DNA of 64,000 nt, taken from the UHGV virus genome UHGV-0179803. One strand, 5' to 3'. The DNA is from a virus. The position numbers and the translations under genes are program-made. Under the pieces are notes generated by a model. The model had not been told where the DNA came from, did no database searches, and worked only from the letters and a program-made list of their open reading frames with translations. Each line of letters opens with the position of its first letter. Position 1 is the first letter of the stretch. Shown one piece after another: positions 3-50,580 of the stretch.

Positions 3-2306
3 CACTTAACAGATAGTTTTGCAGTAGAAGGAAAATGCAATCGTGTTTCCCACTACCCATTAACAGATGACGGTATTCCACAACACGGTGGTTTTAAAGG
101 GGTAAACATCTCTTTCAGTGAAGGGAGAGCTAAAATACCCTCTGGCTCACCTACCTGGGGTGAGTATCTTGATATTGCAGTTATGGCTTACGATGGTGCT
201 TTAGGCCGTAATTCTATGAATTCTGATGTGTATGCAGGTACAGATGATGCCCCAAACTGGTATGCGTCTGGTACGAAGTATCCGGTTGATTGGTACATAG
301 CTTGGGATGGTAACCGTTACTGGGACAATGGTACTATCGCCGATACAGGACATGCTGCTTCTGAGTACGGCACTGTTCAGTTAGCCAGCACTTCGGTTAA
401 CGGCACACATAAATTAAACTATGCAGTACGTTTACCTGTTGCGCAGGGAGGTAAAGAGATTGAACGTTATGATCCGGTGATCACTTCTCCATGTAACGTG
501 ACAGCACCTGACCAGCCAAAGCCTGTTGACTCATTGGCGATGTGGTGTGATGCTTGCTATGCACTTTATTCAATCACTTATGAAAGCAAGTATTTTGAGG
601 CCTATAAGAAGGCCCACAGCGAGCTATTAGCGTACTGCAACCCAAATGCCTATGATATGATTTATAGACGCACCACGGCGATGAGAGCGCCTTTTACCGA
701 CGGTAATGTGACAATCACTGGCAACAGACCTACACTTACCCGCGATGCTGAAGGTTATATCAATGTTGGCATGGGTGCACGTAGACCGTGTGAAGTTATC
801 CAGCAAGGTCTGACTTACAAGGTTGACAGAGATTCTTCAACTGTGATTGAGTTCGGTGGTGAGAATGTTTTGTTCCAGCCGTATTTCACTATTGACGACG
901 GTTATGGTAAAAACATAGAGTACCGTGTCGGTGTCCCGTTTGGTGGGGCAGGTATGCAGGCTAATACTTTCGAGATCCGCGACTTTGTAAGGGTATCCCC
1001 AGAGTTTGGCGACCCCTACCTGCTGCCAAAAGAAGAGAGATTGACAGCCAGCGGTGGTGCTGTTCTGGGTATGGGCTACTCCAGCACTTTATTGGGCCAT
1101 AGTGATAACTACGCTTCACTGAACCTGTCAAGCGGTCAGGTTGTTTTTGATTTTGATGGTGTGAAAGCGCTACGTTCCATTACTTATCAATGCACAGCAG
1201 ATATTGTCAGGATTAATTTCCTTGATAAAGATGGCTGGTTATGGTATACTGATCTACATGGCACAGGTGCAAACTGGGTCACTGAAAATTTATCAATTGG
1301 TGATTTTCTGCTTGAATCTACGCAACCTAATCACTCCGCTGACGAAGTGAAACCCTTCTTTGCCAACCTGAAAGAAGTAACTCAAATTACTCTCAAACTG
1401 GCAACGACTAAGATTGGTGATGGCATTTTCAATCTATACTGTGTAAACAATTTACCAGAGTTCTTTAACTTTGTTGGTGACGTTTACATCGTAAGATTCT
1501 CAATGCATCTTTCATCCCGTGTGGCAGCAACTGCTAAACTCGGCGATTGCTATGTCACAAATTACAAATTTGACAGCTTGAACTATGCACCAGGGGCATG
1601 GCCTACAGGTAAGGTTGCCAATCCAGACAGATACCTGCTGGAAGAAAGACCTGCCTATCCGGTAGCTGGTGAACAGTACCCTGCTGTATTCTGTATGGGT
1701 GAAGAACCTACAGACCTTACAGAGCTTACGAACTGTGTTAAATTCTTGTTTGATGCTCAGCAGCAATACGCAGTCGTATTTGACACAGAAGGCCCTATCT
1801 ACACAGCCTACAACTGGCAGAAAGGTAGCCTGATTGGTGGGTTCATGATGTTGGACAATTCTAAAATGCAAAGCAGAGCATTTGTTGCTGGTTGCAGAGC
1901 ACTTTATGAATTGAAGAAAAATAGAAAACCTGTGGATGAACGTTTAGAGAAATATTGCCAGAAATGGATTGCTTTCCTGAATAGATTCCAGTCAGCGAAT
2001 AGTGGCAGATTACCCACAGATTTCAATACAACAGGTGGCTATTCCAATCAGGACAGAGGTGACAAACAATGGATCACTGCTGAATGGTTAGCTGGTTGTT
2101 GTTATGCAGGTCTTGCAGGTTACACATGGGCACAGATTGACCCGGTGATTGAAGCCTGTATGAATAACTTGCAGAAACATTATTTTGTTAACAGTACCAA
2201 TATTCTCAACGGTTGTTGGGCTAACTCGGATCCTGTAGGTTTCCACTCCGGTGAAATACTGAGAGGTCTGGGCCTTTACGCTCAATATCGCAACTTGTAT
2301 ATTTAA
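3..2306 (+). CDS. Virion structural protein, 5'-truncated at window edge (probable tail or baseplate component)
   Basis: Reading frame of the 183..2306 ORF stays open with no stop back to position 3, so the gene starts upstream of the window. Sits at the head of the structural operon. No recognisable catalytic motifs. Confidence 0.6.
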
Positions 2307-2341
2307 TCTGGAGGGCTTCGGCCCTCCTAACAGGAGAAACA

Positions 2342-5300
2342 ATGGCAGATGTGAAACTTGTCAGGATTGAGTCCTTGCCTGTAACCACAGAAGTCAACAA
2401 AGAAGAAGACTTTCTGATCGTTCAGCAACCAGACCTCACCCGCAGAACTTCAGTGAAAGATCTGATGGCAGGTGATCCGACTCTCTCCCACGTTGTTAAC
2501 TTCCATGACGGTGGCACCTTGAATGGTCCGATGGACTTCTGCTACTACGAGGAAGAAGATTTATACTTACGCTGGACAGGGGGATTCCCGCATACTGTAC
2601 CTTCATTATCAAGCCCATACGAAGATGGTGACATAACCGATGGTGCATGGGCAGTTTACACTGACCCGTCTTTACGTGACGAGTTAGGTTCCACAATCGG
2701 TGCTTCCCTGGTGTTGACTGAAGATGGTAGAACCATCCAGGATACTATGGATGAAGCTATTGATGCTGCTTTTGAAGCTGTACGTGTGCTGAATGGCCTG
2801 AGCTTTGAAAGAGTGACTGTTGTATCGGATGCTAACTACCTCGAAGGCTATGCAGGCCACATCGTAATGGATGAAAAAGCAACGGTTCATTTCCCTGACG
2901 TTGCAAGAGGTGAAGGCACCTTGAACGGTTTTGTATCGAAAGTTGTGGAAACAGACACTTCTAACGTGTACGAAGCTATTATGCAGGGTGGCACAACTGG
3001 GGCGATCTACACCATCCGTGTTTCTGAAGAAGAACACAAAGCGGTATGCCACAGACATGCATTGAAATCTGAATTGAGTCGTTATGACCAAACCAATCCG
3101 ACTCGCACAGTAATCAAAGCTGGCGATGATGCTAACGCATCCTACTTACAACTTGATGCAACTGGTCGTTGGGGTGTATGGAATCCTTCCATAACCAACT
3201 GGCAACCGTTAGCTATGGAACAAGGTGGTACAGGGGTTCGTGATGCTGCTACGTTCCGTCGTAACTTCGCAGTATTTCACAGATCTCATACTGCACTGGA
3301 AGCTGATTTCAATATCAATAACCTGAAAGGTAATGATGCTGGTGTTTACTATCAGCCTATGTCAGCTCTTGCTACTACTGCTAACGGTTATCCTTGCCAA
3401 CAGGCAGGTGTATTGATTGTATTACAGAACAATGCTAACGGAGGAGATGGTTGCCGTCAGGAATATCATCCGTTCAATACTGAGGATACCTACTATTCTC
3501 GCTGGTACAATGCGGGTGAAAAAACATGGCAAGCGTGGGTAACCTGGGCAAGACCCGTGAACACTAACAGCTTCCGTGAGCGGATAGGGATTGGTGCAGG
3601 TAACTCCCCTAGCTTTAGTAATCTGTATTTGAGAGCTGTAACAGACGACAAAGGTGCTTCTGGTATCCTGAATGGTACTAAATATAAAGCAGATGGTACG
3701 ACAGAAGAGCACGGTTTCCGTATTTACTCTGAAGTCCGCAAGGATAATAAAACTTGGTTAACCTTCCACCTGAAAACAGGTCCAGAAGGTAATCAACTTC
3801 ACAAATACCTCGGCTTAAGCGAAGATGGTAATTTTGAAGTTCCGAACAATATTGCTTGTAATACTTTCGCAGTACGTGATCTGAATACAACCCGTAATAC
3901 TTTACAGGTTAACAGATTTGTACAGGCAGGTTCTGAAACTGCCGTCAACAACCCAACAAACACTGCTAAACTGATCATCACAGAGGGTAAACTTTGGGGT
4001 GCTTACGATATTGCCAACAGTTCTTACATCCCGCTGGCAATAGGCCAGGGTGGTACAGGCGCAAGAGATGCAAATACAGCCTGGGCCAATCTAGGTGGTA
4101 AGGCTCTGGGTAAACTTGACAGCATTGCATTGACCGATAATAAGATCACTGGTGTGCTGCCTGTGTCTAAAGGTGGTACAGGTGCTACAAACGTTAACGG
4201 CATTAAGAGCAGCTTAGGTGTTAACCGTTTAGTCAACTCAAGTGCAGAACGCACCATTGTACAGTCTACGGATGTACAAGGTGACGGCTGCTATCTGCAA
4301 GTCGATAAAGGTGGTCAATGGGGCTGCTTCAACCCAGTAGCTGGTAACTGGCAGGCTTTATCTATTGCTCAAGGCGGTACTGGGGCCAAAGACGCAGCCA
4401 CTGCATGGACCAATTTAGGTGGTCGTGCACTAGGTAAAATGGATTCTATCGGCTTAACCGATGGTAAAATTACAGGTGTACTCCCAGTAAGCAAAGGTGG
4501 TACTGGTTGCGTATCTGATACGGAAGTTAAAGCATGGTTAGAACGCATAGGTATCTCCGGCGGCGGTGAAGGTGGTGGCAGTACAGGTACAGGCGGTTCT
4601 GCTGTAAACACGACACCTTTCGTAATTCAGAAACCTGATGGTGCGGAAGATGGTAAATATTACCCTGTCATTATTAATACATCTGAGGTAAACGCTTCAA
4701 TTGGTACAGACCTCCTTGTTAGTACCAGATCCTCGGTAGGCACTGATCCTATGAACTGTTCTACCTTGAGATGCTGGTATCGTACTGGCGGTTGGACAGA
4801 TAGAGGTGATTCTGCCTATGGTATGATCTCCTTCTACCAGAGTGAAGTGTCCATTTTAGGTTTGCTTGTTCCTACTCGTGGTCAGACAAACTATGCCGCT
4901 ATTTATGTGCATGAAAAAGCGTTCCCTATCTACGTTTATGCAAGTGCTGCGGTGACAGATGTTTGTGCCTATGCTGAAGACTTTGTAGCCAGTACTCCTA
5001 CAGATGGTCGAGATGGGGTTGTGTATAAAGCGGGTATTACAGATATCCACGAAGCAATTTTGGGTGATAATATAACCAACACTCGTCCACTTTTTGACTT
5101 TACTGGTGGTGTAAGCGGGTTCTACTGCAACCAATGGATGTACCGTGGCACCAAAGACAAATGGTTCTTGCAGAACAAAACAGAGATGGGTGAAACCGAA
5201 CTCTGGTATAATGGTCTGAAATACATCTGCCCAGGTAGCCAGACAGCCCGTAAAGCTCTGGAATCTAACGCAGGTTTCATGACGAAATCTGAGGGTACGG

Positions 5301-42459: not shown

Positions 42460-42929
42460 TTTACGAAAGTGACTATATCTGGAAGATTGGCCCTGCTGCA
42501 CAAGATCTGATTGAAGTGCCACGGGAAACGCTACAAAAAGCTGCTTTTAAGTTCCGTGATCTTGCAGTGATTGGTAACAGGATCCTGAAATATCTTAAAA
42601 ACAAACGTTATGTTGAAGAGAAGTTCTTCGGATTGATCAAAAAAGAAACTACAGTATGGGAACACTACTTGAAAGAGTCTCAGAGCTTCTATGCTGGGCT
42701 GGGCGTAGCTCAGATGGTGATGCATGACGGTTACATCAACCCAACTGAAATGCGTTGCCTACGCTACGCTATAAGCGATTACCCTGGGTTCCTGAAGTAT
42801 CATTTAACTGGCACAGCCTCTGAAAAGATTTATCTGACAGAGGAACATTTCGAACAACTGAATAAAATTTTAAACATAGACTTGACATTAGTCTCAACAG
42901 AGTATACAATTGGGATTCGTGTCGAGTAA
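42456..42929 (+). CDS. Hypothetical protein (157 aa)
   Basis: ORF in operon. Confidence 0.5.
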   Translation: MIYESDYIWKIGPAAQDLIEVPRETLQKAAFKFRDLAVIGNRILKYLKNKRYVEEKFFGLIKKETTVWEHYLKESQSFYAGLGVAQMVMHDGYINPTEMRCLRYAISDYPGFLKYHLTGTASEKIYLTEEHFEQLNKILNIDLTLVSTEYTIGIRVE

Positions 42930-42934
42930 TAACA

Positions 42935-42965
42935 GCCCTGCCCGAAAGGGCGGGGTTTTTGTGTT
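42935..42965 (+). terminator. Rho-independent terminator (CCCTGCCC-GAAA-GGGCGGGG + T-tract)
   Basis: GNRA-loop hairpin followed by TTTTTGTGTTT. Confidence 0.65.
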
Positions 42966-42981
42966 TGGAGGGCTAAATAGT

Positions 42982-43716
42982 ATGAAGCAAGGTGTAGTGT
43001 GGGCTTTATTCAATGGCTCCGATATTGCTGTCAAACCCTGGGCTGATGCAGGGTATTTGTGCTTCTGCTTCAATGCAGAAGGGGCAGATCACGGGAGCTA
43101 TGCAGAGGTAGTAGAAGAACATCCCAACATTAAGTACATAGATTACTGGATTGACCCGTGGTTCCCACAAGAAACCTTGGGGATGTATCCTGCACCAGAT
43201 TTCATCCTGTCGTTTCCACCATGTACCCACTTAGCGGTATCTGGAGCAGCACATTTCAAGAAAAAATTACAAAAAGATCCGTTGATTCAGGTCAATGCTG
43301 TAAAAGATGCACGTATTGCAGAAACATTGGGTAACATGTATAATTGTCCGTGGCATGTGGAGAACCCTGTTGGGGTTATGTCTAATATGTGGCGTAAACC
43401 AGACTACAAGTTCCATCCGTCTGAGTATGGTGGCTATCTGCCGGAAGATGACCAGAACCCGTGGTTCCCTGACCTGATTAAGCCCAGAGATGCTTATCCG
43501 AAGCTAACCTGTGGATGGTTTGGGAATGGTTTTGTTGTCCCTGAGAAACGACCTGTGCCGCAGATTTGTGATGTAAATGGGTATTCTTTCCAACATACCA
43601 AACTGGGAGGAAAATCTCCTCGTACCAAAATGATCAGAAGCCTGACACCTCGTGGTTGGGCATTAGCCGTGTTTGAAGCCAACGAACCCGTTGTAAGGAG
43701 CAAACTCAATGGTTGA
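42982..43716 (+). CDS. Possible DNA (cytosine-5) methyltransferase-like protein; assignment tentative
   Basis: Ordered motif-like segments: LFNGSD (cf. motif I FxGxG), SFPPCTHLAVSG (cf. motif IV PC), WHVENPVG (cf. motif VI ENV). Short for a C5-MTase (244 aa). Confidence 0.3.
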   Translation: MKQGVVWALFNGSDIAVKPWADAGYLCFCFNAEGADHGSYAEVVEEHPNIKYIDYWIDPWFPQETLGMYPAPDFILSFPPCTHLAVSGAAHFKKKLQKDPLIQVNAVKDARIAETLGNMYNCPWHVENPVGVMSNMWRKPDYKFHPSEYGGYLPEDDQNPWFPDLIKPRDAYPKLTCGWFGNGFVVPEKRPVPQICDVNGYSFQHTKLGGKSPRTKMIRSLTPRGWALAVFEANEPVVRSKLNG

Positions 43717-44380
43717 CTGGAGCAAATATTTCACCTACAGTGACGGTAAACTGTTCTGGGCGTATACCGCAAAAGCCGGAAGAGGCAGGGTTATACATCA
43801 CGCAGGCGAGGAGGCCACAGGTACAGACACAGATGGCTATAGGGTGATAAGTGTGTCAGGTGTTGGACGTGTTAGTAGGCATAGAATAATTTGGGAGATG
43901 CATTACGGGGAGATACCTGAAGGCCTTGTTGTGCGGCACAAGAACGACATAGCAGGCGATGATAGGATAGAGAACTTAGTCCTAGGAACACAGGGAGATA
44001 ATGTACGAGACATGATCTACAGTGACAAATTGAACATTAACAATACCTCAGGGTGTCGAGGTGTATGCTACCATAGGGGTGTAAAAAGATGGATTGCATC
44101 TGCTGGAGACATATATTTAGGATGTTTTAAGACAAAAGAGGATGCAATTACATGCAGAAAGTTATGGGAGGAGGGAAAATTCGTCCCGCAAGAATTAGAT
44201 GTTAGAAATACCAGCGGTGTAACAGGGGTGTTCTATGTGCCAAGCTCTGGAAGGTGGAGAGTTAGAGTACAAAGTGGCAAAAAGAGAAAGAGCTATGGTA
44301 GTTACAACACTTTAGAAGAAGCAAGAGCTGTAAGGGACAGAGTGATGAAAGAGATTGAGGAGTCTAAAGATGGGGAATAA
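43709..44380 (+). CDS. Freestanding HNH homing endonuclease with AP2 DNA-binding repeats
   Basis: HNH_3-like core ..RHRIIWEMHYGEIPEGLVVRHKNDIAGDDRIENLVLGTQGDN.. plus AP2-like repeats ..SGCRGVCYHRGVKRWIASAGDIYLGCFKTKEDA.. and ..SGVTGVFYVPSSGRWRVRV..YGSYNTLEEA.. Confidence 0.7.
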   Translation: MVDWSKYFTYSDGKLFWAYTAKAGRGRVIHHAGEEATGTDTDGYRVISVSGVGRVSRHRIIWEMHYGEIPEGLVVRHKNDIAGDDRIENLVLGTQGDNVRDMIYSDKLNINNTSGCRGVCYHRGVKRWIASAGDIYLGCFKTKEDAITCRKLWEEGKFVPQELDVRNTSGVTGVFYVPSSGRWRVRVQSGKKRKSYGSYNTLEEARAVRDRVMKEIEESKDGE

Positions 44381-47300
44381 GTTTATACCCTCTGCGTATA
44401 GTCGTTATGGGGAACCGAACCCAGTTGCAACAAGATACAAAAGCGGAGGCAGTATGGCACGAGACTATCGTGATGAAAAAGAGGTTGAAACTGTAGAGAC
44501 TGTTTTAGAAAATACTAAAATTGTCCCTGTTCCACAACAAAATATCGGACTGACGGCTGCACAATATTTCGGTGTGCGATCAGCATTGTCCCAAGAAGAT
44601 GGTGTGACAGTCGTTGCAACATATTTCCCATATTACAACCGCTACGGCAATCTATCTGGCTTTAAAAAGCGTGATTGGTCTAAGCCAAAAGAGCAGAAAG
44701 GGCACTGGTCTGTAGTAGGCATTGTTAAGGCCAACAGCCAGTTCTTCGGTCAGAAAATGGTTGGTGAAGGCTCAGACCATCGTAAAATCATTGTCTGCGA
44801 AGGTGAAGGCGATGTTATTGCTGCGTGGCAGACTGAATGGATGATGGTCAGGAAAATAGCTACAGACCCGTCATCAAATAAGAAAGCTAAAGCGTGGGCA
44901 CAAAGCGTTCTTGACGGTATTAAAGCCGTGCAGGATGGTGGTTCTGCTAAAGGTTTTCCCACAATTAACGTGGTAGGGCTTAATTGTGGTTGTGCGAATG
45001 CCGTAGACGCTTTTGCCAACAACGAGAAGTTTATTCGTGGCTTTGATGAGATTGTCCTGGCCTTCGATAATGACGCTGCAAATGATGTTGAGAAGCTAAA
45101 ACATGTCACCAAAGGTGTTGAAGCCACTCACAATGTTGCAGCTTTCCTGATGGCTGACAACGTTTTCCATGTGCAGTATCCGAGCGAGGTAAATGATCCA
45201 GAGGGTTACAAAGATATCCGTGATTTGTTCCAGGCTAAAAAGTATGATCAAATTCACGATATGTTCAAAAACCCGATCAAATACGTGCCAGACGCTGTAG
45301 CAGGCCTGAATGATTTCTCAATTGAAGATTTACGTAAAAAATCCACCAATGGTGTTGACATTGGGGCAGAGTTCCCTAAACTCCAGAAAATGTTGAAAGG
45401 TTTGCATAAAGGCACACTGGTCATGTTGACTGGCCCTTCCGGCGGTGGTAAGACTACGGTAGCTAAGAAGATTGAGCACCAGATAGCTAAATACCTGATG
45501 GATCCTACGGTGGCTAAAGCTGATGACTACGACCCCGAAGACAGGTTGTGTATGATTCACCTGGAAGAGGACCCAGAAGAAGCCATCAACTCGCTGTATG
45601 CTAACCAGCTGGGGTATGATATCAAGAATTTCATGGAGGACCCAAGCAAGTATCTGACCGAGCAGGAACACTTTGAAATCCACAAAGCCTGGGTTGATGC
45701 TGATAAAATCAGAGTATTCCGGCACTTCGGTTCAATACCTGTAAACGACCTGATCACCAAGCTGAAACAGATGGTGTGCTTGTATCATTGTCGTTACATC
45801 GTACTGGATCATCTGTCAATGGTTATTTCTGGTTTGAATGTAAAAGATGAGCGTAAAGAGCTGGACCTTGCAATGACGCAGCTTGCAGCATTCTGTAAGC
45901 AATTCAATGTGTTCATTTTGGTGATTGCACACTTACGTCGTACAGAGATTATCCCACCGAAGGATAAAGAAGGTAGGGCTTTACCGTTCTGGTATCCTGT
46001 CCGTAAAGAAAACCTTCGTGGTTGTGTTTCTGCGGACACAGAGTTTTTAACCCCGCAGGGGTGGAAACGCATAGATAACTATGCAGAAGGGGATTTGGTT
46101 GCGCAGCACGATGAAAATGGCGTAATGACTTTCGTAACCCCGAAAGCCTACATCAATCTTCCTTGCGAAGAAATGTGGCATGTTTCCAACACTCACGTTG
46201 TAGACATGTTGTTGAGCGATGAACATCGTGTTGTATATGTGAATGACAGAACGCCAGATGTTTTCCGTACGAAAACCATGTTGGAAGTTGTCTATGACCA
46301 CAACAACAAGCCTTCAGGTATGCGTGGGAAAATACCTGCTACGTTCCTCACAGGGTGCAATGGGACGCTGGGGTTGACTGATGACCAATTACGCCTACAG
46401 GTTGCTGTAAATGCTGATGGGACAGTTCTTACTGAGTCAACAGGAAGAGTGGCTGTGAGAATCAAAAAAGATCGGAAAAAACAACGTCTCGAGATGCTGC
46501 TGGAGAAAACAAACACCACTTATAGGCGTCTTGATTTGCACGGGGTGCACGAAGGACGCACAGAGTACCAATTTAAAGCACCGTGTGGGTATAAAGGTGT
46601 GACTGGGGAATGGTTTAATCTCAAACAACACGAGTTGGAGATTATCTGTGATGAGGTTATGTATTGGGACGGAGATTCTGTGAACAAAAACAGGGTGTCC
46701 ACCATTAACAAACTTGAAGCGGACTTCTTACAGTTTGCCTACAGCGCCTGTGGACATAGAACATCTTTATCCATGAAGGAGAACAACAGTGGCTTTGGCG
46801 GTAGTTACAACTGTAAACCTTTGTACGAGGTAAATGTTTGCAATACTAAGTACATGCATATACGCAAAGGTAGTAATAACAAACCCTCTATTGAACGTGT
46901 ACCTTCCCCAGATGGACGTAAGTATTGCTTTACGTTACCGTCGGGTATGTGGGTGGCGCGCCGCAATGGGCATATTTTTATCACAGGAAATTCGGGGAGT
47001 ATGGAACAACTCAGTTGGGTTGTCATAGGGGTAGAAGCAGAAGAGATGCCTGACAGGTCCCGTGGGCGTGTCCGTTTAGTTAGCCTAAAAAACAGGCCAG
47101 CTAAAACCTTGGGTATCGCTGATGTGCTGATTATGAACCCTGAGACTGGTAAATTCTCCGATGCCAGTGACTGGGTGTGGGATAAAGAGACAGGTTTCTT
47201 CCTGAACAAAGATGGGGATATTGTCTGGAGGCCACAAGATATGTTCGACAATGAAGAACATGTTGTTGTGGAAACTCCTGAAGGTAAGGTTACCGCCGAT

Positions 47301-47411
47301 GTGAAACCTCAACCAAAATCTGTTGACGCAGAAGGGGAAGAAGATGATGGAGTGGATGATCAGAGTGTAATCCAACAGGAGTTCCCTGAGGATGAAGATT
47401 GTCCGTTCTGA
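44370..47411 (+). CDS. Bifunctional DNA primase (TOPRIM) / DnaB-family replicative helicase, intein-containing precursor
   Basis: ATG 44370 eight nt after GAGGAG. TOPRIM motifs IIVCEGEGD and LAFDNDAAND. Helicase Walker A LTGPSGGGKTT and Walker B YIVLDHLSM. Motif H4 is interrupted: ..ENLRG[intein]SGSMEQLSWVV.., cf. DnaB ..LRESGSIEQDADL.. Confidence 0.8.
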   Translation: MGNKFIPSAYSRYGEPNPVATRYKSGGSMARDYRDEKEVETVETVLENTKIVPVPQQNIGLTAAQYFGVRSALSQEDGVTVVATYFPYYNRYGNLSGFKKRDWSKPKEQKGHWSVVGIVKANSQFFGQKMVGEGSDHRKIIVCEGEGDVIAAWQTEWMMVRKIATDPSSNKKAKAWAQSVLDGIKAVQDGGSAKGFPTINVVGLNCGCANAVDAFANNEKFIRGFDEIVLAFDNDAANDVEKLKHVTKGVEATHNVAAFLMADNVFHVQYPSEVNDPEGYKDIRDLFQAKKYDQIHDMFKNPIKYVPDAVAGLNDFSIEDLRKKSTNGVDIGAEFPKLQKMLKGLHKGTLVMLTGPSGGGKTTVAKKIEHQIAKYLMDPTVAKADDYDPEDRLCMIHLEEDPEEAINSLYANQLGYDIKNFMEDPSKYLTEQEHFEIHKAWVDADKIRVFRHFGSIPVNDLITKLKQMVCLYHCRYIVLDHLSMVISGLNVKDERKELDLAMTQLAAFCKQFNVFILVIAHLRRTEIIPPKDKEGRALPFWYPVRKENLRGCVSADTEFLTPQGWKRIDNYAEGDLVAQHDENGVMTFVTPKAYINLPCEEMWHVSNTHVVDMLLSDEHRVVYVNDRTPDVFRTKTMLEVVYDHNNKPSGMRGKIPATFLTGCNGTLGLTDDQLRLQVAVNADGTVLTESTGRVAVRIKKDRKKQRLEMLLEKTNTTYRRLDLHGVHEGRTEYQFKAPCGYKGVTGEWFNLKQHELEIICDEVMYWDGDSVNKNRVSTINKLEADFLQFAYSACGHRTSLSMKENNSGFGGSYNCKPLYEVNVCNTKYMHIRKGSNNKPSIERVPSPDGRKYCFTLPSGMWVARRNGHIFITGNSGSMEQLSWVVIGVEAEEMPDRSRGRVRLVSLKNRPAKTLGIADVLIMNPETGKFSDASDWVWDKETGFFLNKDGDIVWRPQDMFDNEEHVVVETPEGKVTADVKPQPKSVDAEGEEDDGVDDQSVIQQEFPEDEDCPF
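46023..46991 (+). mobile_element. Intein (323 aa) inserted in helicase motif H4 of the primase-helicase
   Basis: In frame. Starts with Cys (CVSADTEF..), ends ..VARRNGHIFITGN followed by Ser. Removing it restores LRG-SGSMEQ, which matches the DnaB consensus. Size suggests an embedded endonuclease domain. Confidence 0.6.
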
Positions 47412-47475
47412 TGCTTAACTGAGAGTGGGGAGAGCAGTACAGCCAACTCCCCCTTACATGTAAGGTATTAATAAT

Positions 47476-50262
47476 ATGGCGCTTTTTTGTTATGACTTTG
47501 AGGCCTCAGGCTTGCTCGATGAGCCTGAACTGTACTACCATTGTGGACTGTTTAAACAGCACCACAAAAACAATTTCATGCTATTCCTGCCGCTAAACGA
47601 CAGGACCCATTACACAGAGGAAGATGTAGAAACAGCAAAACAATTTGCTCTCAATAAGCAGACAATTTACAAAAACTGTCAGGTGCGGGTTGCCGACTTC
47701 GGGTATCTGGAAGAGTGGTTGACAGGACATTCTGATTGGTCACCAACAGCTCTTGCCTGCCACAACTGCTTTGATTATGACCAGATTTTGATGGAAAAAC
47801 TGTCAGGCATTCATTTCGACCTGTTCGAAGATAAAGATTGCATGGGAACCATCAACGGTCACAGGGTTAACCTGTTCGATACTCTGCCGATGAGTCGTAT
47901 ACTGTGGCCTGATCGCCCGTTACCGAAGGGTTGCCCAGAATCAGTATTCAACCCGGTAACGAAGAAAAGTCAAGCTGTAGGTCCACACGGGTTGATGGCC
48001 TGGGGCTATGCACTTGGCAACCAGAAAGTTAAGATTGATGACTGGCGCAATCTTCCACTCTGGAAATACGTAGACCGTGTGTGGGAAGACGTTATCATCC
48101 AGGAATTGCTCTGGGACGAACTGATCGCCGAGTCCAAAGGGACATTCTACGGTAAATCTGACATGCAAAACTTTATGTATGATCCAGACAAAGAGAAACC
48201 TGGTGGATTCAAACAGATCACTTGGAAGTATGCTCTGCGTCGTGGGATGCTTCAGCACTTCCTGATGGGCTTACAGGCAAGACAAGGTGTTTATTTTGAT
48301 ATTGATGGGGCGATAGCTTTACGTCAGAAGTGTGACGACATGATGAAAGAGATCGCTGATCGTGTGGAACCGCAGCTGCCACTGAAAGAAATTTCAGAGG
48401 CCCAGAAGCCTAAGTTCCCACAGAAACCGTTTAATACGGATGGTAGTATCTCTTCTCACGGCTACAGCTGGTTGAAGAACAAACTGGGGTATCCAGTTAA
48501 TGAAGCAGCTTTCGACTTCAAACCTGCACCTAAACGGGCTTTCAACAAAGATGGTAGTGTTAGTGCCACAGGTGCTAAATGGTGTGTAGAAAGAGGTTGC
48601 ACCGATCCTGAAAAACAGGCAGACTTCCTGAGGGCAGCACGGTCAGAGGAAGCACCTAAACCTCTGCCGGATGACCTGATGCAACAGGCAATTAAGGATT
48701 TGCAGGATAAGAAAATGCCTGATTGCATGGTGCCTATGAGAATGAATAACCAGATGGATATCAAGCGTTATCTAATCTCTGTAGGCTGGCAACCAACAAT
48801 GTGGAGAACGAAAGATTTAACCCGTGATTACCACAAAAAACAGTTGCCGGATGCTGAAGTTGATGCTAAAGTAAGGGAGTATATGGATGAACTGGAAACA
48901 TCTGAGTATCGTGCCCTGATCATCCGTGAACTGAACAAGGATGCACGATTCAAAATTTCAGAAGCGAAGTTTCTGAGTCGTAAGAACTCCCCGAGGGTTG
49001 AGCAGGAGGTGTTCGCTAAGTTCCGGCGTAAAGCCAGAGGACTACCAACATCCCCGCAGCTGAAAGATAGCTTCGGGCATTTGTGTCCTAACCTGGCAAG
49101 ACTGCAAGGAGAGATGGCAAAAGATATTGTGTTCTGGCTGTCATTGCGTAACCGTAGGTCAGTACTTGACCCAATCAAGGAAGATAAAGTTGATACCGGA
49201 TTGTTGAATCATCCGAGATTGCAGATCGATCACCGCTTACCCGCAGAAAGCTCTGGTTTGACTGCTACCGGACGACAGAAGCATAAAATATGTGCCAACC
49301 AGCCTAAACCTTCACCAAAAGTTGTATTGGGTAAGGAGATGCGTAGCCTCTGGAAACCTGCTCCTGGTAAGTATCAGTTGGGGGTGGATGGTTCCAACCT
49401 TGAACAGCTGATAGGTGCATGGGGTGCTTACGATTTCGACAACGGGGCGTATTACAGGATTATAAGCGAAGGGGACGCACATGCTTTGAACGCCAAAGCC
49501 TACTCTAAAGTTGTGGGCAGGGAAGTTTCCCGTGGTGATGGTAAACCAATCACCTATGGTGTGATGTATGGCGCTCAAAAGGATAAAGTAGCGGATATGC
49601 TCGACGTTGTGCCGGAGGTTGGTCAGCAGGTAATTGATGCATTCTGGGATACCAACTTCGGCCTGAAAGGTCGTAAAGAGGCACTTGAGAAATTCTGGGA
49701 GGCAACAGGTAAGAAATTTATCTATGCTTTCGATGGTCATGCCATCTGGACACGCTCTAAACACTCCTTGCTGAATGCATATCAGCAGAATGGTGGCGCT
49801 TCATTGTGTGACTTGGTAGGCTTACTGGTTCATCGCAACCTAGTGACCTTGAAAATAGATAATAAAACTTGGTATGACCTAGGTGTCAGAAGAATAATTT
49901 ATTACCATGACGAATTTCAGTATGAAATTCCAGATAATGGCTTATTTAAAACAGTTTATGAGTTTGATACTCTGGAAGAACTGGAAAAATTCAAAGCAGA
50001 GGAGGAAGCAAAAGGTCGTATCTTTACTGGCAACAAATACAAAAAAGCCCGTAAAGATGAAAATGGTGAAGAAGTAGTTGACAGCAACGGTAAAACCGTG
50101 TATGATCCAATCATAAACGAAAACGGCAAATGCCAGTTGATTCATTGCAAGGTTGGTGAAATGGTTGTTAAATGCTTCCACCAGGCATCTCGCATCATGA
50201 AAGTACCTTTCCAGATCACAGGTGAAGGTCTTGTGGGATACTCGTGGGGCGAATGCCACTGA
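47476..50262 (+). CDS. Family A DNA polymerase with N-terminal 3'-5' exonuclease domain
   Basis: Exo I motif CYDFEASGL. Pol A motif A LGVDGSNLEQ, motif B ..RGDGKPITYGVMYGAQ.., motif C ..IYYHDEFQYE.. Confidence 0.85.
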   Translation: MALFCYDFEASGLLDEPELYYHCGLFKQHHKNNFMLFLPLNDRTHYTEEDVETAKQFALNKQTIYKNCQVRVADFGYLEEWLTGHSDWSPTALACHNCFDYDQILMEKLSGIHFDLFEDKDCMGTINGHRVNLFDTLPMSRILWPDRPLPKGCPESVFNPVTKKSQAVGPHGLMAWGYALGNQKVKIDDWRNLPLWKYVDRVWEDVIIQELLWDELIAESKGTFYGKSDMQNFMYDPDKEKPGGFKQITWKYALRRGMLQHFLMGLQARQGVYFDIDGAIALRQKCDDMMKEIADRVEPQLPLKEISEAQKPKFPQKPFNTDGSISSHGYSWLKNKLGYPVNEAAFDFKPAPKRAFNKDGSVSATGAKWCVERGCTDPEKQADFLRAARSEEAPKPLPDDLMQQAIKDLQDKKMPDCMVPMRMNNQMDIKRYLISVGWQPTMWRTKDLTRDYHKKQLPDAEVDAKVREYMDELETSEYRALIIRELNKDARFKISEAKFLSRKNSPRVEQEVFAKFRRKARGLPTSPQLKDSFGHLCPNLARLQGEMAKDIVFWLSLRNRRSVLDPIKEDKVDTGLLNHPRLQIDHRLPAESSGLTATGRQKHKICANQPKPSPKVVLGKEMRSLWKPAPGKYQLGVDGSNLEQLIGAWGAYDFDNGAYYRIISEGDAHALNAKAYSKVVGREVSRGDGKPITYGVMYGAQKDKVADMLDVVPEVGQQVIDAFWDTNFGLKGRKEALEKFWEATGKKFIYAFDGHAIWTRSKHSLLNAYQQNGGASLCDLVGLLVHRNLVTLKIDNKTWYDLGVRRIIYYHDEFQYEIPDNGLFKTVYEFDTLEELEKFKAEEEAKGRIFTGNKYKKARKDENGEEVVDSNGKTVYDPIINENGKCQLIHCKVGEMVVKCFHQASRIMKVPFQITGEGLVGYSWGECH

Positions 50263-50328
50263 TAAATCAATAACTTACGTAACATACTGGAGGGGAATAC
50301 TTCCCCTCCCCAATCAGGAGAGTTAGCC

Positions 50329-50580
50329 ATGACAGAACGTGAAGTAATCCCAGTAGTATGTGTTTACGCAGCAGGTGAAGATGACGGTTATCCACACCTG
50401 GAAGGTTTATTTGTTGAAGGCCATGAGTACGTACTCGTCCGGTCAGAGGAAGAAGACGAAGAAGGGATCTACCTGGTTAAAGACGAAAGAGTACCGTTTG
50501 AATGGTCAGCAATAGAACAGGAAGATGGTGTGTGGACTGTCGAAGGTCTGGAGCTGATTGCAGAATTCGAAGAACTTTAA
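50329..50580 (+). CDS. Small highly acidic protein (83 aa)
   Basis: RBS AGGAG. About 30% Asp+Glu. Confidence 0.5.
   Translation: MTEREVIPVVCVYAAGEDDGYPHLEGLFVEGHEYVLVRSEEEDEEGIYLVKDERVPFEWSAIEQEDGVWTVEGLELIAEFEEL

What the first reader, a model, noticed from the sequence alone, without database searches (positions are those of the whole stretch)
46023..46991. Intein in helicase motif H4 of the primase-helicase
The primase-helicase ORF carries a 323-aa in-frame insertion that begins with Cys and ends with Asn followed by Ser. Removing it joins ..ENLRG to SGSMEQLSWVV.., recreating the DnaB H4 motif (LRESGSIEQDADL). The penultimate residue is Gly rather than the usual His, so this may be a non-canonical intein. 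The size suggests an embedded homing endonuclease. A replication-essential gene that depends on protein splicing is notable in a lytic phage.
Basis: partly seen in the sequence, partly recalled or inferred. Interest (0 to 1): 0.6.

Follow-up and report, generated by a model that had tools for sequence, protein, structure and literature searches.

The report
Homing intein in phage primase-helicase
The phage's replicative primase-helicase gene is interrupted by a 323-residue self-splicing, mobile protein element (an intein with a LAGLIDADG homing endonuclease); it is real, but it is an ordinary member of a large, already studied group of phage inteins.

Summary
Window 46023-46991 encodes a 323-aa in-frame insert (Cys1 ... 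Gly-Asn | Ser+1) in a T7 gp4-like primase-helicase (44370-47411). Removing it gives ...VRKENLRG|SGSMEQLSWVV..., which aligns without a gap to T7 gp4 motif H4 (R487-G488|S489) and to intein-less rV5-like orthologues.

The intein reading is supported:
- Full-length homologues sit in at least ten unrelated host proteins, in 3,348 representative clusters.
- Among 156 copies, Cys1 is kept in 155, terminal Gly-Asn in 147 and a +1 Ser/Cys/Thr in 155.
- An AlphaFold model (pLDDT 91.6) best matches VMA inteins, PI-SceI, PI-PfuI and I-DmoI.
- The same allele in an IMG/VR phage is 89% identical, while its exteins are about 54% identical. That indicates lateral transfer.

The penultimate Gly is the family norm, not an oddity. 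The family also has Cys at block F:4 and Thr at G:5. Two distant relatives ending in Thr-Gly-Asn splice in experiments: the Bethlehem RDF intein, and the AceL NrdHF class 3 split intein, which also shares Ser65/His68/Arg69.

Inteins in helicase motif H4 and in phage replication genes are well known. This is a new member of a known kind, of low to moderate interest. The open point is whether Cys1 or Cys302 makes the first attack.

The parts
44370..47411 (+). Primase-helicase precursor gene (1013 aa plus stop); T7 gp4-like, with TOPRIM primase and DnaB-family helicase domains
   Evidence: ORF. ATG with GAGGAG SD. Pfam DnaB_C, AAA_25 and Toprim. T7 gp4 structures at E 1e-18. 75-78% aa identity to rV5-like primase/helicases.
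44370..46022 (+). N-extein (551 aa), ending ...VRKENLRG. Contains Walker A GPSGGGKTT (45432-45458) and Walker B IVLDHLS (45798-45818)
46023..46991 (+). Intein, 323 aa: Cys1 ... Thr321-Gly322-Asn323
46023..46064 (+). Block A (CVSADTEFLTPQGW). In 157 aligned sequences: Cys1 156, Thr6 155, Glu7 153, Trp14 156
46209..46238 (+). Block B (LLSDEHRVVY): Ser65 (B:7), His68 (B:10), Arg69 (B:11), Val70 (B:12)
   Evidence: Same residues and numbering as Ser65/His68/Arg69 of the AceL NrdHF intein (PMC7891396; profile match at E 3e-6).
46350..46877 (+). LAGLIDADG homing-endonuclease domain inserted in the HINT fold (about residues 110-285; boundaries approximate)
   Evidence: Secondary structure of the model. 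Foldseek matches to I-DmoI, PI-SceI and PI-PfuI. Pfam LAGLIDADG_3 hits in 7 of 23 family members.
46389..46421 (+). First LAGLIDADG-like helix, LRLQVAVNADG (Asp132 in 155/157, Gly133 in 149/157)
46635..46673 (+). Second LAGLIDADG-like helix, LEIICDEVMYWDG (Trp215 in 157/157, Asp216 in 156/157, Gly217 in 150/157)
46920..46964 (+). Block F (KYCFTLPSGMWVARR): Cys302 at F:4 (154/157), Arg313 (156/157)
46974..46994 (+). Block G (IFITGN|S): Thr321 (G:5), Gly322 (G:6), Asn323 (G:7), Ser+1
46992..47408 (+). C-extein (139 aa), starting SGSMEQLSWVV. It completes motif H4 and the rest of the helicase domain

Best explanation
The segment is a full-length, probably active intein. It is a HINT-fold protein-splicing domain with a double-motif LAGLIDADG homing endonuclease nested inside it. 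It is inserted between Gly551 and Ser875 of the precursor, inside DNA-binding motif H4 of a T7 gp4-like primase-helicase.

Inferred mechanism (not shown here):
1. The precursor is translated as one 1013-aa chain, and the helicase is inactive until the insert is removed.
2. Cys1 makes the N-S acyl shift at Gly-1, with Ser65 and His68 (the S-x-x-H block B) straining the scissile bond.
3. The N-extein is passed to Ser+1.
4. Asn323 cyclises to release the intein. This step works without the usual penultimate His: Gly322 leaves room for Arg69 (B:11) and perhaps the near-invariant Arg313 to polarise the C-terminal scissile bond, as shown for Arg69 in the related AceL NrdHF intein.
5. An O-N shift yields the 690-aa helicase with an intact LRGSGSMEQ motif.

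Cys302 (F:4) and Thr321 (G:5) form the same Cys-His-Thr arrangement with His68 that class 3 inteins use. Cys302 may therefore assist or relay the acyl transfer.

At the DNA level, the endonuclease (Asp132 and Asp216) would cut intein-less alleles at the LRG|S codons during co-infection, and the element would be copied in by repair (homing).
For: Shown here:
- Exact junctions and an open frame.
- An intein-less orthologue that is contiguous at exactly this point, and a second Vequintavirinae phage (TH18) with a 32%-identical intein at the same point.
- Excision restores the DnaB_C profile match and the alignment to T7 gp4 H4.
- Full-length homologues of the insert lie inside PhoH-like, RtcB, RecD-like, TOPRIM-primase (annotated 'intein-containing'), RNR alpha, DNA polymerase, terminase and phosphoesterase genes.
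- 3,348 representative clusters match at E<=1e-3, and all of the best 150 except P0002 (a 330-aa stand-alone degenerate copy) are embedded in larger proteins.
- Across 156 copies: Cys1 155, terminal GN 147, +1 S/C/T 155. Across 157 aligned sequences: His68 156, Cys302 154, Arg313 156, Asp132 155, Asp216 156.
- AF2 model with pLDDT 91.6 and pTM 0.90.
- Best Foldseek PDB matches: TliVMA/PhoVMA inteins (E 1e-12), PI-SceI, PI-PfuI, I-DmoI, and the AceL NrdHF intein for the HINT part (TM 0.72).
- The family profile matches the AceL NrdHF sequence at E 3e-6.
- The same allele in IMG/VR contig L011 is 88.9% aa / 81.8% nt identical, while the exteins are about 54% aa and the flanks 58-65% nt identical.

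From the literature:
- The Bethlehem RDF intein (C1, Cys at F:4, TGN end; aligns end to end with this one) splices efficiently, has an active LAGLIDADG endonuclease, and G316H slows it (PMC5050341).
- In AceL NrdHF, G145H abolishes splicing and Arg69 assists Asn cyclisation (PMC7891396).
Against: - No splicing or cleavage experiment exists for this protein.
- Pfam and NCBIfam do not recognise the insert. The only hit is Hint_2 at E 0.13, below threshold, so the HINT assignment rests on the predicted fold and on family context.
- Arg69 is not conserved across the family (R 65, N 40, T 22 of 157). Its proposed role is specific to part of the family.
- I could not read coordinates from the model, so active-site distances were not checked.
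- The composition of the insert (GC 45.0%) does not differ from the exteins (44.6% and 47.5%), so there is no compositional sign of recent arrival.
Confidence: 0.9

Rival explanations
1. The object is the same, an intein, but it splices by the class 3 route. [quoted passage not shown] That intermediate is then passed to Ser+1, as in the AceL NrdHF and Bethlehem DnaB inteins. A relay through both cysteines is also possible.
For: - Cys302 is as conserved as Cys1 (154/157 against 156/157), and Thr321 at G:5 is kept in 144/157.
- The closest solved structure by sequence (E 3e-6), and the best HINT-only fold match, is a proven class 3 intein. It shares Ser65/His68/Arg69, Cys at F:4 and a Thr-Gly-Asn|Ser end (PMC7891396).
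- The +1 residue here is Ser, which is favoured in class 3 inteins (PMC2807308).
Against: - The defining class 3 feature, no nucleophile at position 1, is not met. Cys1 is nearly invariant, which argues that it is used.
- Trp at B:12 is absent (Val70).
- The Cys1-bearing Bethlehem RDF relative was treated as class 1 (PMC5050341).
- Cys is the second most common residue at F:4 among inteins overall (PMC4031507), and class 1 inteins with Cys at F:4 are known and polyphyletic (PMC3196547).
Confidence: 0.2
2. The insert is a decayed intein, or a domesticated insertion domain, that no longer splices. The helicase then either works with the 323-aa insert in place or is a pseudogene.
For: - No direct splicing data exist.
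- The penultimate His is missing.
- Degenerate relatives exist, for example P0002, which lacks Cys1 and the terminal Asn.
Against: - Every catalytic position of the family is intact in this copy (Cys1, Ser65, His68, Cys302, Thr321, Asn323, Ser+1), and so are both endonuclease aspartates.
- The insert splits motif H4 between the equivalents of T7 gp4 R487-G488 and S489. Mutations at R487 and G488 disable that helicase (PMC1616965).
- The gene is the only primase-helicase seen in this replication module.
- Relatives ending in Thr-Gly-Asn splice well (PMC5050341, PMC7891396).
Confidence: 0.04
3. The insert is removed at the RNA level. It would be a group I or group II intron with an in-frame endonuclease ORF, rather than an element removed at the protein level.
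For: - Related phages have split replication genes annotated as joins, for example the EmilHeitz DNA polymerase and the KIL4 primase/helicase.
- LAGLIDADG endonucleases also occur in introns.
Against: - No Rfam family matches 43500-50500, even at E<=1.
- The insert is in frame from its first to its last codon.
- It begins and ends with splice-junction residues that are conserved across hundreds of homologues.
- Its two ends fold together into a HINT domain.
Confidence: 0.01

Closest known systems
Mycobacteriophage Bethlehem RDF (phosphoesterase) intein, class 1 with penultimate Gly (Kelley et al. 2016, PMC5050341)
   Same: - Cys1, S/T-x-x-H block B, nested double-motif LAGLIDADG endonuclease, Cys at F:4, Thr-Gly-Asn end.
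- Similar size (317 against 323 aa).
- End-to-end pairwise alignment.
- Experimentally splicing-competent with an active endonuclease.
   Different: - Only 20% identical (pairwise E 2e-4).
- Different host protein and insertion site.
- Actinobacteriophage rather than coliphage-like.
AceL NrdHF naturally split class 3 intein (PDB 6zgq; Hoffmann et al. 2020, PMC7891396)
   Same: - Ser65 / His68 / Arg69 in block B at the same positions.
- Cys at F:4, Thr-Gly-Asn|Ser end, no F:13 His and no G:6 His.
- Best sequence-profile hit in the PDB and best HINT-only fold hit.
- Phage-derived.
   Different: - AceL starts with Ala1, which obliges the class 3 route.
- It is split into two genes with a free-standing GIY-YIG endonuclease between them.
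- It has no nested LAGLIDADG domain and sits in an RNR beta subunit.
DnaB-a (motif H4) inteins: Ssp DnaB, Mtu DnaB, Msm DnaBi2 (PMC6195587; PDB 6frh)
   Same: - Class 1-type inteins interrupting motif H4, the DNA-binding loop of a DnaB-family replicative helicase.
- Ser at +1.
- Mtu DnaB and Msm DnaBi2 carry a homing endonuclease.
   Different: - Different intein lineage: canonical Asp at F:4 and His-Asn end, for example ...FDLTVPGPHNFVANDIIVHN in Ssp DnaB (query sequence; the solved chains carry C1A and N-to-A changes).
- Insertion point is LRESG|SIEQD, two residues downstream of LRG|SGSMEQ here.
- The host is bacterial DnaB, not a phage gp4-like primase-helicase.
Inteins at the same site in other gp4-like primase-helicases: Escherichia phage vB_EcoM_TH18, 19-1-2, 18-1-2 and 24-2-1; IMG/VR contig L011; representatives P0003, P0005, P0007-P0009, P0015
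   Same: - Identical insertion point (..LRG|C...GN|S[AG]..EQ) and the same family.
- L011 is 88.9% identical and P0003 is 82% identical.
   Different: - The TH18 allele is only 32% identical and 308 aa long.
- The public records annotate these genes simply as 'DNA primase/helicase', without noting an intein.

Membership tests
Intein (HINT protein-splicing domain), class 1 | Cys, Ser or Thr nucleophile at intein position 1 | tested here: met
   Cys1 (TGT at 46023); Cys in 155 of 156 family copies
Intein (HINT protein-splicing domain), class 1 | Block B T-x-x-H (B:7 and B:10) | tested here: met
   Ser65-x-x-His68. His in 156/157; S, T or C at B:7 in all. Ser at B:7 is functional in AceL NrdHF (PMC7891396).
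Intein (HINT protein-splicing domain), class 1 | C-terminal Asn (G:7) followed by a Cys, Ser or Thr at +1 | tested here: met
   Asn323 | Ser+1. In the family: Asn 156/157 and +1 S/C/T in 155/156.
Intein (HINT protein-splicing domain), class 1 | Penultimate His (G:6), and Asp at F:4 (common but not obligatory) | tested here: not met
   Gly322 and Cys302. Both variants are documented in splicing-competent inteins (PMC5050341, PMC4031507, PMC7891396).
Intein (HINT protein-splicing domain), class 1 | HINT fold formed by the N- and C-terminal segments | tested here: met
   AF2 model with pLDDT 91.6. Foldseek top hits are solved inteins at E 1e-12 to 1e-8, plus 6zgq with target TM 0.72. At sequence level Pfam gives only Hint_2 at E 0.13.
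Intein (HINT protein-splicing domain), class 1 | Orthologues without the insert exist, and the insert occurs in unrelated host proteins | tested here: met
   EmilHeitz and more than 500 other records are contiguous at the site. Homologues occur in PhoH, RtcB, RNR, polymerase, TOPRIM, terminase and others.
Intein (HINT protein-splicing domain), class 1 | Protein splicing demonstrated | not testable with these tools
   Needs expression and SDS-PAGE or mass spectrometry
Class 3 intein | No nucleophile at position 1 | tested here: not met
   Cys1, nearly invariant in the family
Class 3 intein | WCT triplet: Trp at B:12, Cys at F:4, Thr at G:5 | tested here: inconclusive
   Val70 at B:12 (not met). 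Cys302 and Thr321 present (met). The proven class 3 AceL NrdHF intein also lacks the Trp; it has Met (PMC7891396).
LAGLIDADG homing endonuclease (double-motif, intein-nested) | Two LAGLIDADG helices, each ending in a catalytic acidic residue | tested here: met
   LRLQVAVNADG (Asp132) and LEIICDEVMYWDG (Asp216), conserved in 155 and 156 of 157
LAGLIDADG homing endonuclease (double-motif, intein-nested) | LAGLIDADG alpha/beta fold | tested here: met
   Foldseek matches to I-DmoI (E 3e-6, target TM about 0.6), PI-SceI and PI-PfuI. Pfam LAGLIDADG_3 hits 7 of 23 family members, but not the window copy.
LAGLIDADG homing endonuclease (double-motif, intein-nested) | Site-specific cleavage of the intein-less allele | not testable with these tools
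   Indirect support only: intein 89% against exteins 54% identical between two phage lineages
DnaB-a (motif H4) intein insertion site | Insertion at LRESG|SIEQD of DnaB | tested here: not met
   Same motif, but two residues upstream: LRG|SGSMEQ against LRESG|SIEQD

The most novel reading that the evidence does not exclude
This very large phage-borne family (Cys1 + Cys at F:4 + Thr at G:5 + Gly at G:6, invisible to Pfam) keeps both possible N-terminal nucleophiles almost invariant. It may splice by a relay: a Cys1 thioester, then a Cys302 branched thioester, then the Ser+1 ester. That would be a mechanistic intermediate between class 1 and class 3, and the ancestral state from which AceL-type class 3 inteins arose by simple loss of Cys1. 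If so, the window's intein would be a natural test case: C1A should leave residual, class 3-type splicing, and C302A should slow or block it.
Probability: 0.2. Interest if true: 0.5.

Novelty: new member of a known kind. Interest (0 to 1): 0.28.

Why it matters
- For annotation: the gene product should be described as a 690-aa primase-helicase plus a 323-aa intein. Public records of related phages (TH18, 19-1-2, AM24, the Bacillus RtcB genes and others) miss this, partly because Pfam and NCBIfam models do not detect the family.
- For phage biology: helicase activity, and so replication, has to wait for splicing. The element and the neighbouring HNH-AP2 endonuclease gene mark this replication module as a hotspot for selfish mobile DNA.
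- For intein research: the copy is a clean, full-length example of the Cys1/Cys-F:4/Thr-Gly-Asn type. It has a close second allele (89% identical) in a host gene that is 54% identical. That pair is useful for mapping the homing site and for testing which cysteine starts splicing.
- None of this changes current understanding.

Tried and rejected
- Pfam and NCBIfam scans of the insert gave only a sub-threshold Hint_2 hit and nothing else. A single-sequence PDB search gave only a spurious ETR1 hit.
- The search for homologous proteins, which relies on a word index, returned only two hits. The exhaustive representative search was needed.
- A PDB search with the 43-residue C-terminal peptide, meant to align blocks F and G with 6zgq, returned only designer Kelch-repeat proteins by chance (NGHIY..GG). 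It was discarded.
- The Rfam scan for introns found nothing.
- Composition analysis showed no GC or GC3 anomaly in the insert.
- A tblastn of the intein against the whole window found no second copy.
- Tori & Perler 2011 (PMC3133030) is not held in the library. Its conclusions are cited only as reported in PMC3196547 and PMC4031507.
- The reading of a conserved helicase domain was rejected because orthologues lack the insert.
- A bacterial intein-like (BIL) domain was rejected because the terminal Asn and the +1 Ser are present.
Full report
**1. The observation**

The ORF list and the raw sequence show one uninterrupted reading frame on the + strand that ends at 47411.
- The tool lists the ORF from TTG 44355. 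The real start is ATG 44370: a GAGGAG Shine-Dalgarno lies 8 nt upstream, and the product begins MGNKF like the annotated orthologue in phage EmilHeitz.
- Codon 46023-46025 is TGT (Cys). Codons 46986-46991 are GGA AAT (Gly-Asn). The next codon is TCG (Ser).
- The segment 46023-46991 is 969 nt = 323 aa.

**2. Is it an insertion?**

- The spliced sequence (690 aa) aligns by tblastn as a single piece to the primase/helicase genes of rV5-like phages (Vequintavirus) at 74-78% identity. In all, 549 records are covered over at least 80% of the query.
- In a direct alignment, phage EmilHeitz reads ...FWYPVRKENLRG|SAGLEQLSWVVIGVE..., with nothing between G and S.
- Against solved structures, the spliced helicase domain matches T7 gp4 (E about 1e-18). 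...VRKENLRGSGSMEQLSWVVIGVE aligns without a gap to ...[23 protein letters not shown]. On the 566-residue chain, the junction falls between the equivalents of G488 and S489.
- T7 motif H4 is residues 480-500, and R487 and G488 are residues whose mutation disables the helicase (PMC1616965).
- The Pfam DnaB_C match stops at profile position 181 in the precursor (43.5 bits). It extends to position 239 of 255 (51.2 bits) once the insert is removed.
- The statement that excision recreates motif H4 is therefore correct.
- The classical DnaB-a inteins split the homologous motif two residues later. PDB 6frh shows the Ssp DnaB intein between LRESG and SIEQD, against LRG|SGSMEQ here.

**3. Is it an intein?**

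Curated sequence libraries do not say so. Pfam gives only Hint_2 at E 0.13 over residues 1-31, and NCBIfam gives nothing. Four independent lines of evidence do.

(a) Distribution
- tblastn of the insert against 50,697 phage records finds 441 records, 289 of them covering at least 80% of the 323 residues.
- The hits lie inside genes annotated as primase/helicase, PhoH-like, RtcB, RecD-like, exonuclease V, AAA ATPase, TOPRIM primase (one record says 'intein-containing'), RNR alpha, DNA polymerase, Ser/Thr phosphatase and terminase.
- An exhaustive search of 1.84 billion representative proteins finds 3,348 clusters at E<=1e-3 and 563 at E<=1e-30. All of the best 150 except P0002 (a 330-aa stand-alone degenerate copy) are embedded in larger proteins, and all but one cover query residues 1-323.

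(b) Junction residues
- In 156 full-length copies, the first residue is Cys in 155, the last two are Gly-Asn in 147, the next residue is Ser/Cys/Thr in 155, and the preceding residue is Gly in 130.
- 119 copies sit in P-loops (G|C...GN|[STC]GK[ST]). About eight sit at the LRG|S..EQ site of gp4-like helicases. Others sit in TOPRIM, Walker B, RtcB and MetK-like motifs.

(c) Conserved blocks (counts out of 157 aligned sequences)
- Block A: CV(D/S)xDTEF...GW.
- Block B: S65-x-x-H68.
- Two LAGLIDADG-like helices ending in A-D132-G and W-D216-G.
- Block F: Y-C302-F.
- An almost invariant R313.
- Block G: T321-G322-N323.

(d) Fold
- With a 23-sequence alignment, AlphaFold2 gives a model with pLDDT 91.6 and pTM 0.90.
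- Its best Foldseek matches in the PDB are the TliVMA and PhoVMA inteins (E about 1e-12), PI-SceI and PI-PfuI.
- For the middle domain the best match is I-DmoI. For the HINT part alone it is the AceL NrdHF intein (target TM 0.72).

An RNA intron is unlikely. Nothing in Rfam matches 43500-50500 even at E<=1.

**4. Mobility**

- Most rV5-like phages lack the element.
- Phage TH18 and three relatives carry a 308-aa, 32%-identical intein at exactly the same point.
- An IMG/VR contig of 136 kb (L011) carries the same allele at the same point. Its intein is 88.9% aa and 81.8% nt identical, whereas the N- and C-exteins are 54.8% and 53.4% aa identical and the 300-nt flanks 65% and 58% nt identical.
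- Representative P0003 gives the same picture: 82% against 54%.
- An element much better conserved than the gene it sits in indicates lateral transfer. Both endonuclease aspartates are intact, so homing is the likely route. This is inferred, not shown.
- There is no compositional anomaly and no second copy in the window.

**5. The 'non-canonical' end**

The penultimate Gly is the family norm. The literature covers two distant relatives that end in Thr-Gly-Asn and splice.
- The mycobacteriophage Bethlehem RDF intein has Cys1...VWCLRV... in block F and a ...LTGN end. It aligns end to end with the window intein at 20% identity. It splices efficiently, carries an active LAGLIDADG endonuclease, and is slowed by G316H. 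Penultimate Gly, Lys or Ser is common in class 1 inteins of mycobacteriophages (PMC5050341).
- The AceL NrdHF split intein has Ser65 (B:7), His68 (B:10), Arg69 (B:11), Met70 (B:12), Cys124 (F:4) and Thr144-Gly145-Asn146|Ser. G145H abolishes activity through a clash with Arg69, and Arg69 helps Asn cyclisation (PMC7891396).
- The window intein has Ser65, His68, Arg69, Val70, Cys302 and Thr321-Gly322-Asn323|Ser. The family profile matches AceL NrdHF at E 3e-6.
- The likely reason for the Gly is therefore steric. It leaves room for a block-B (or other) basic residue to take over the role of the missing His. Arg69 itself is present in only 65 of 157 family members, so this detail may not hold for the whole family. 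Arg313, present in 156 of 157, is another candidate.

**6. Which splicing class?**

- The intein meets the class 1 requirements: Cys1, S-x-x-H, terminal Asn and Ser+1.
- It also has two of the three class 3 signature residues (Cys at F:4, Thr at G:5) and its nearest solved relative is a proven class 3 intein.
- Class 3 is defined by the absence of a position-1 nucleophile. That feature is not met, so I do not file it as class 3.
- Cys is the second most common residue at F:4 (PMC4031507), and class 1 inteins with Cys at F:4 are known (PMC3196547).
- I rate the plain class 1 route most likely, at about 0.7 of the probability that it splices at all. A class 3 or relay route through Cys302 gets about 0.2. 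Only mutagenesis can decide.

**7. Comparison and novelty**

- Inteins in motif H4 and in the P-loop of replicative helicases are classical (PMC6195587).
- Inteins in phage replication genes, with LAGLIDADG endonucleases and without the penultimate His, have been described and tested (PMC5050341).
- This copy is a new, unannotated member of that kind, in a phage related to but distinct from known Vequintavirinae. Only short stretches reach 80-90% nt identity.
- What remains mildly interesting is the size of this family, its invisibility to Pfam, and its dual-cysteine active site.

**8. Verdict**

This is a new member of a known kind, with interest about 0.28.

Noticed in passing
window 43709-44380 (+): A free-standing homing-endonuclease gene (Pfam HNH_3 at E 2e-17 plus an AP2 DNA-binding domain) lies between the Dcm-like methyltransferase ORF (42910-43716) and the primase-helicase, and overlaps its start. 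EmilHeitz, HeinrichReichert and phages 203/206 have it; most rV5-like phages do not. The primase-helicase locus therefore carries two different selfish elements.
   Followed up: partly
window 44355-44372: The mechanical ORF call starts at TTG 44355. The likely real start is ATG 44370, with GAGGAG 8 nt upstream, matching the annotated MGNKF start of EmilHeitz.
   Followed up: yes
L011 (IMGVR_UViG_3300045988_163358) 1345-4320: A 136-kb uncultivated phage contig has the same intein allele at the same site (88.9% aa) in a primase-helicase whose exteins are only about 54% identical to the window's. This is a ready-made pair for mapping the homing site.
   Followed up: yes
P0002 (330 aa, 2.4-kb contig): A stand-alone protein that is 29% identical to the intein over its full length, but starts with Gly instead of Cys1 and ends ...AKGL instead of TGN. 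It is probably a decayed intein or an endonuclease freed from splicing.
   Followed up: no
P0004, P0006 (and P0013, P0019, P0020): Single proteins carry two copies of this intein family. In the primase-helicases P0004 and P0006, one copy is in the TOPRIM motif (..EGE|CD..) and one in the P-loop.
   Followed up: no
L002 (Pseudomonas phage KIL4) 1430-4231: The primase/helicase CDS is annotated as a two-piece join although the frame is open throughout. It holds a 40%-identical intein in the P-loop (GSASG|C...TGN|TGKST). The annotators may have treated the intein as an intron.
   Followed up: partly
L008 (Escherichia phage NHEP1) and window 47476-50262: The DNA polymerase of the Vequintavirus NHEP1 carries a 24.6%-identical member of the same intein family. 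The EmilHeitz polymerase is annotated as a two-piece join. The window's polymerase ORF (928 aa) has no copy of this intein family.
   Followed up: partly
window 46992-47003: The first C-extein residues here are SGSM, while intein-less and other intein-bearing relatives have SAGL, SAAL or SAAI. This may be local adaptation of the extein to the intein, or a co-conversion scar.
   Followed up: no
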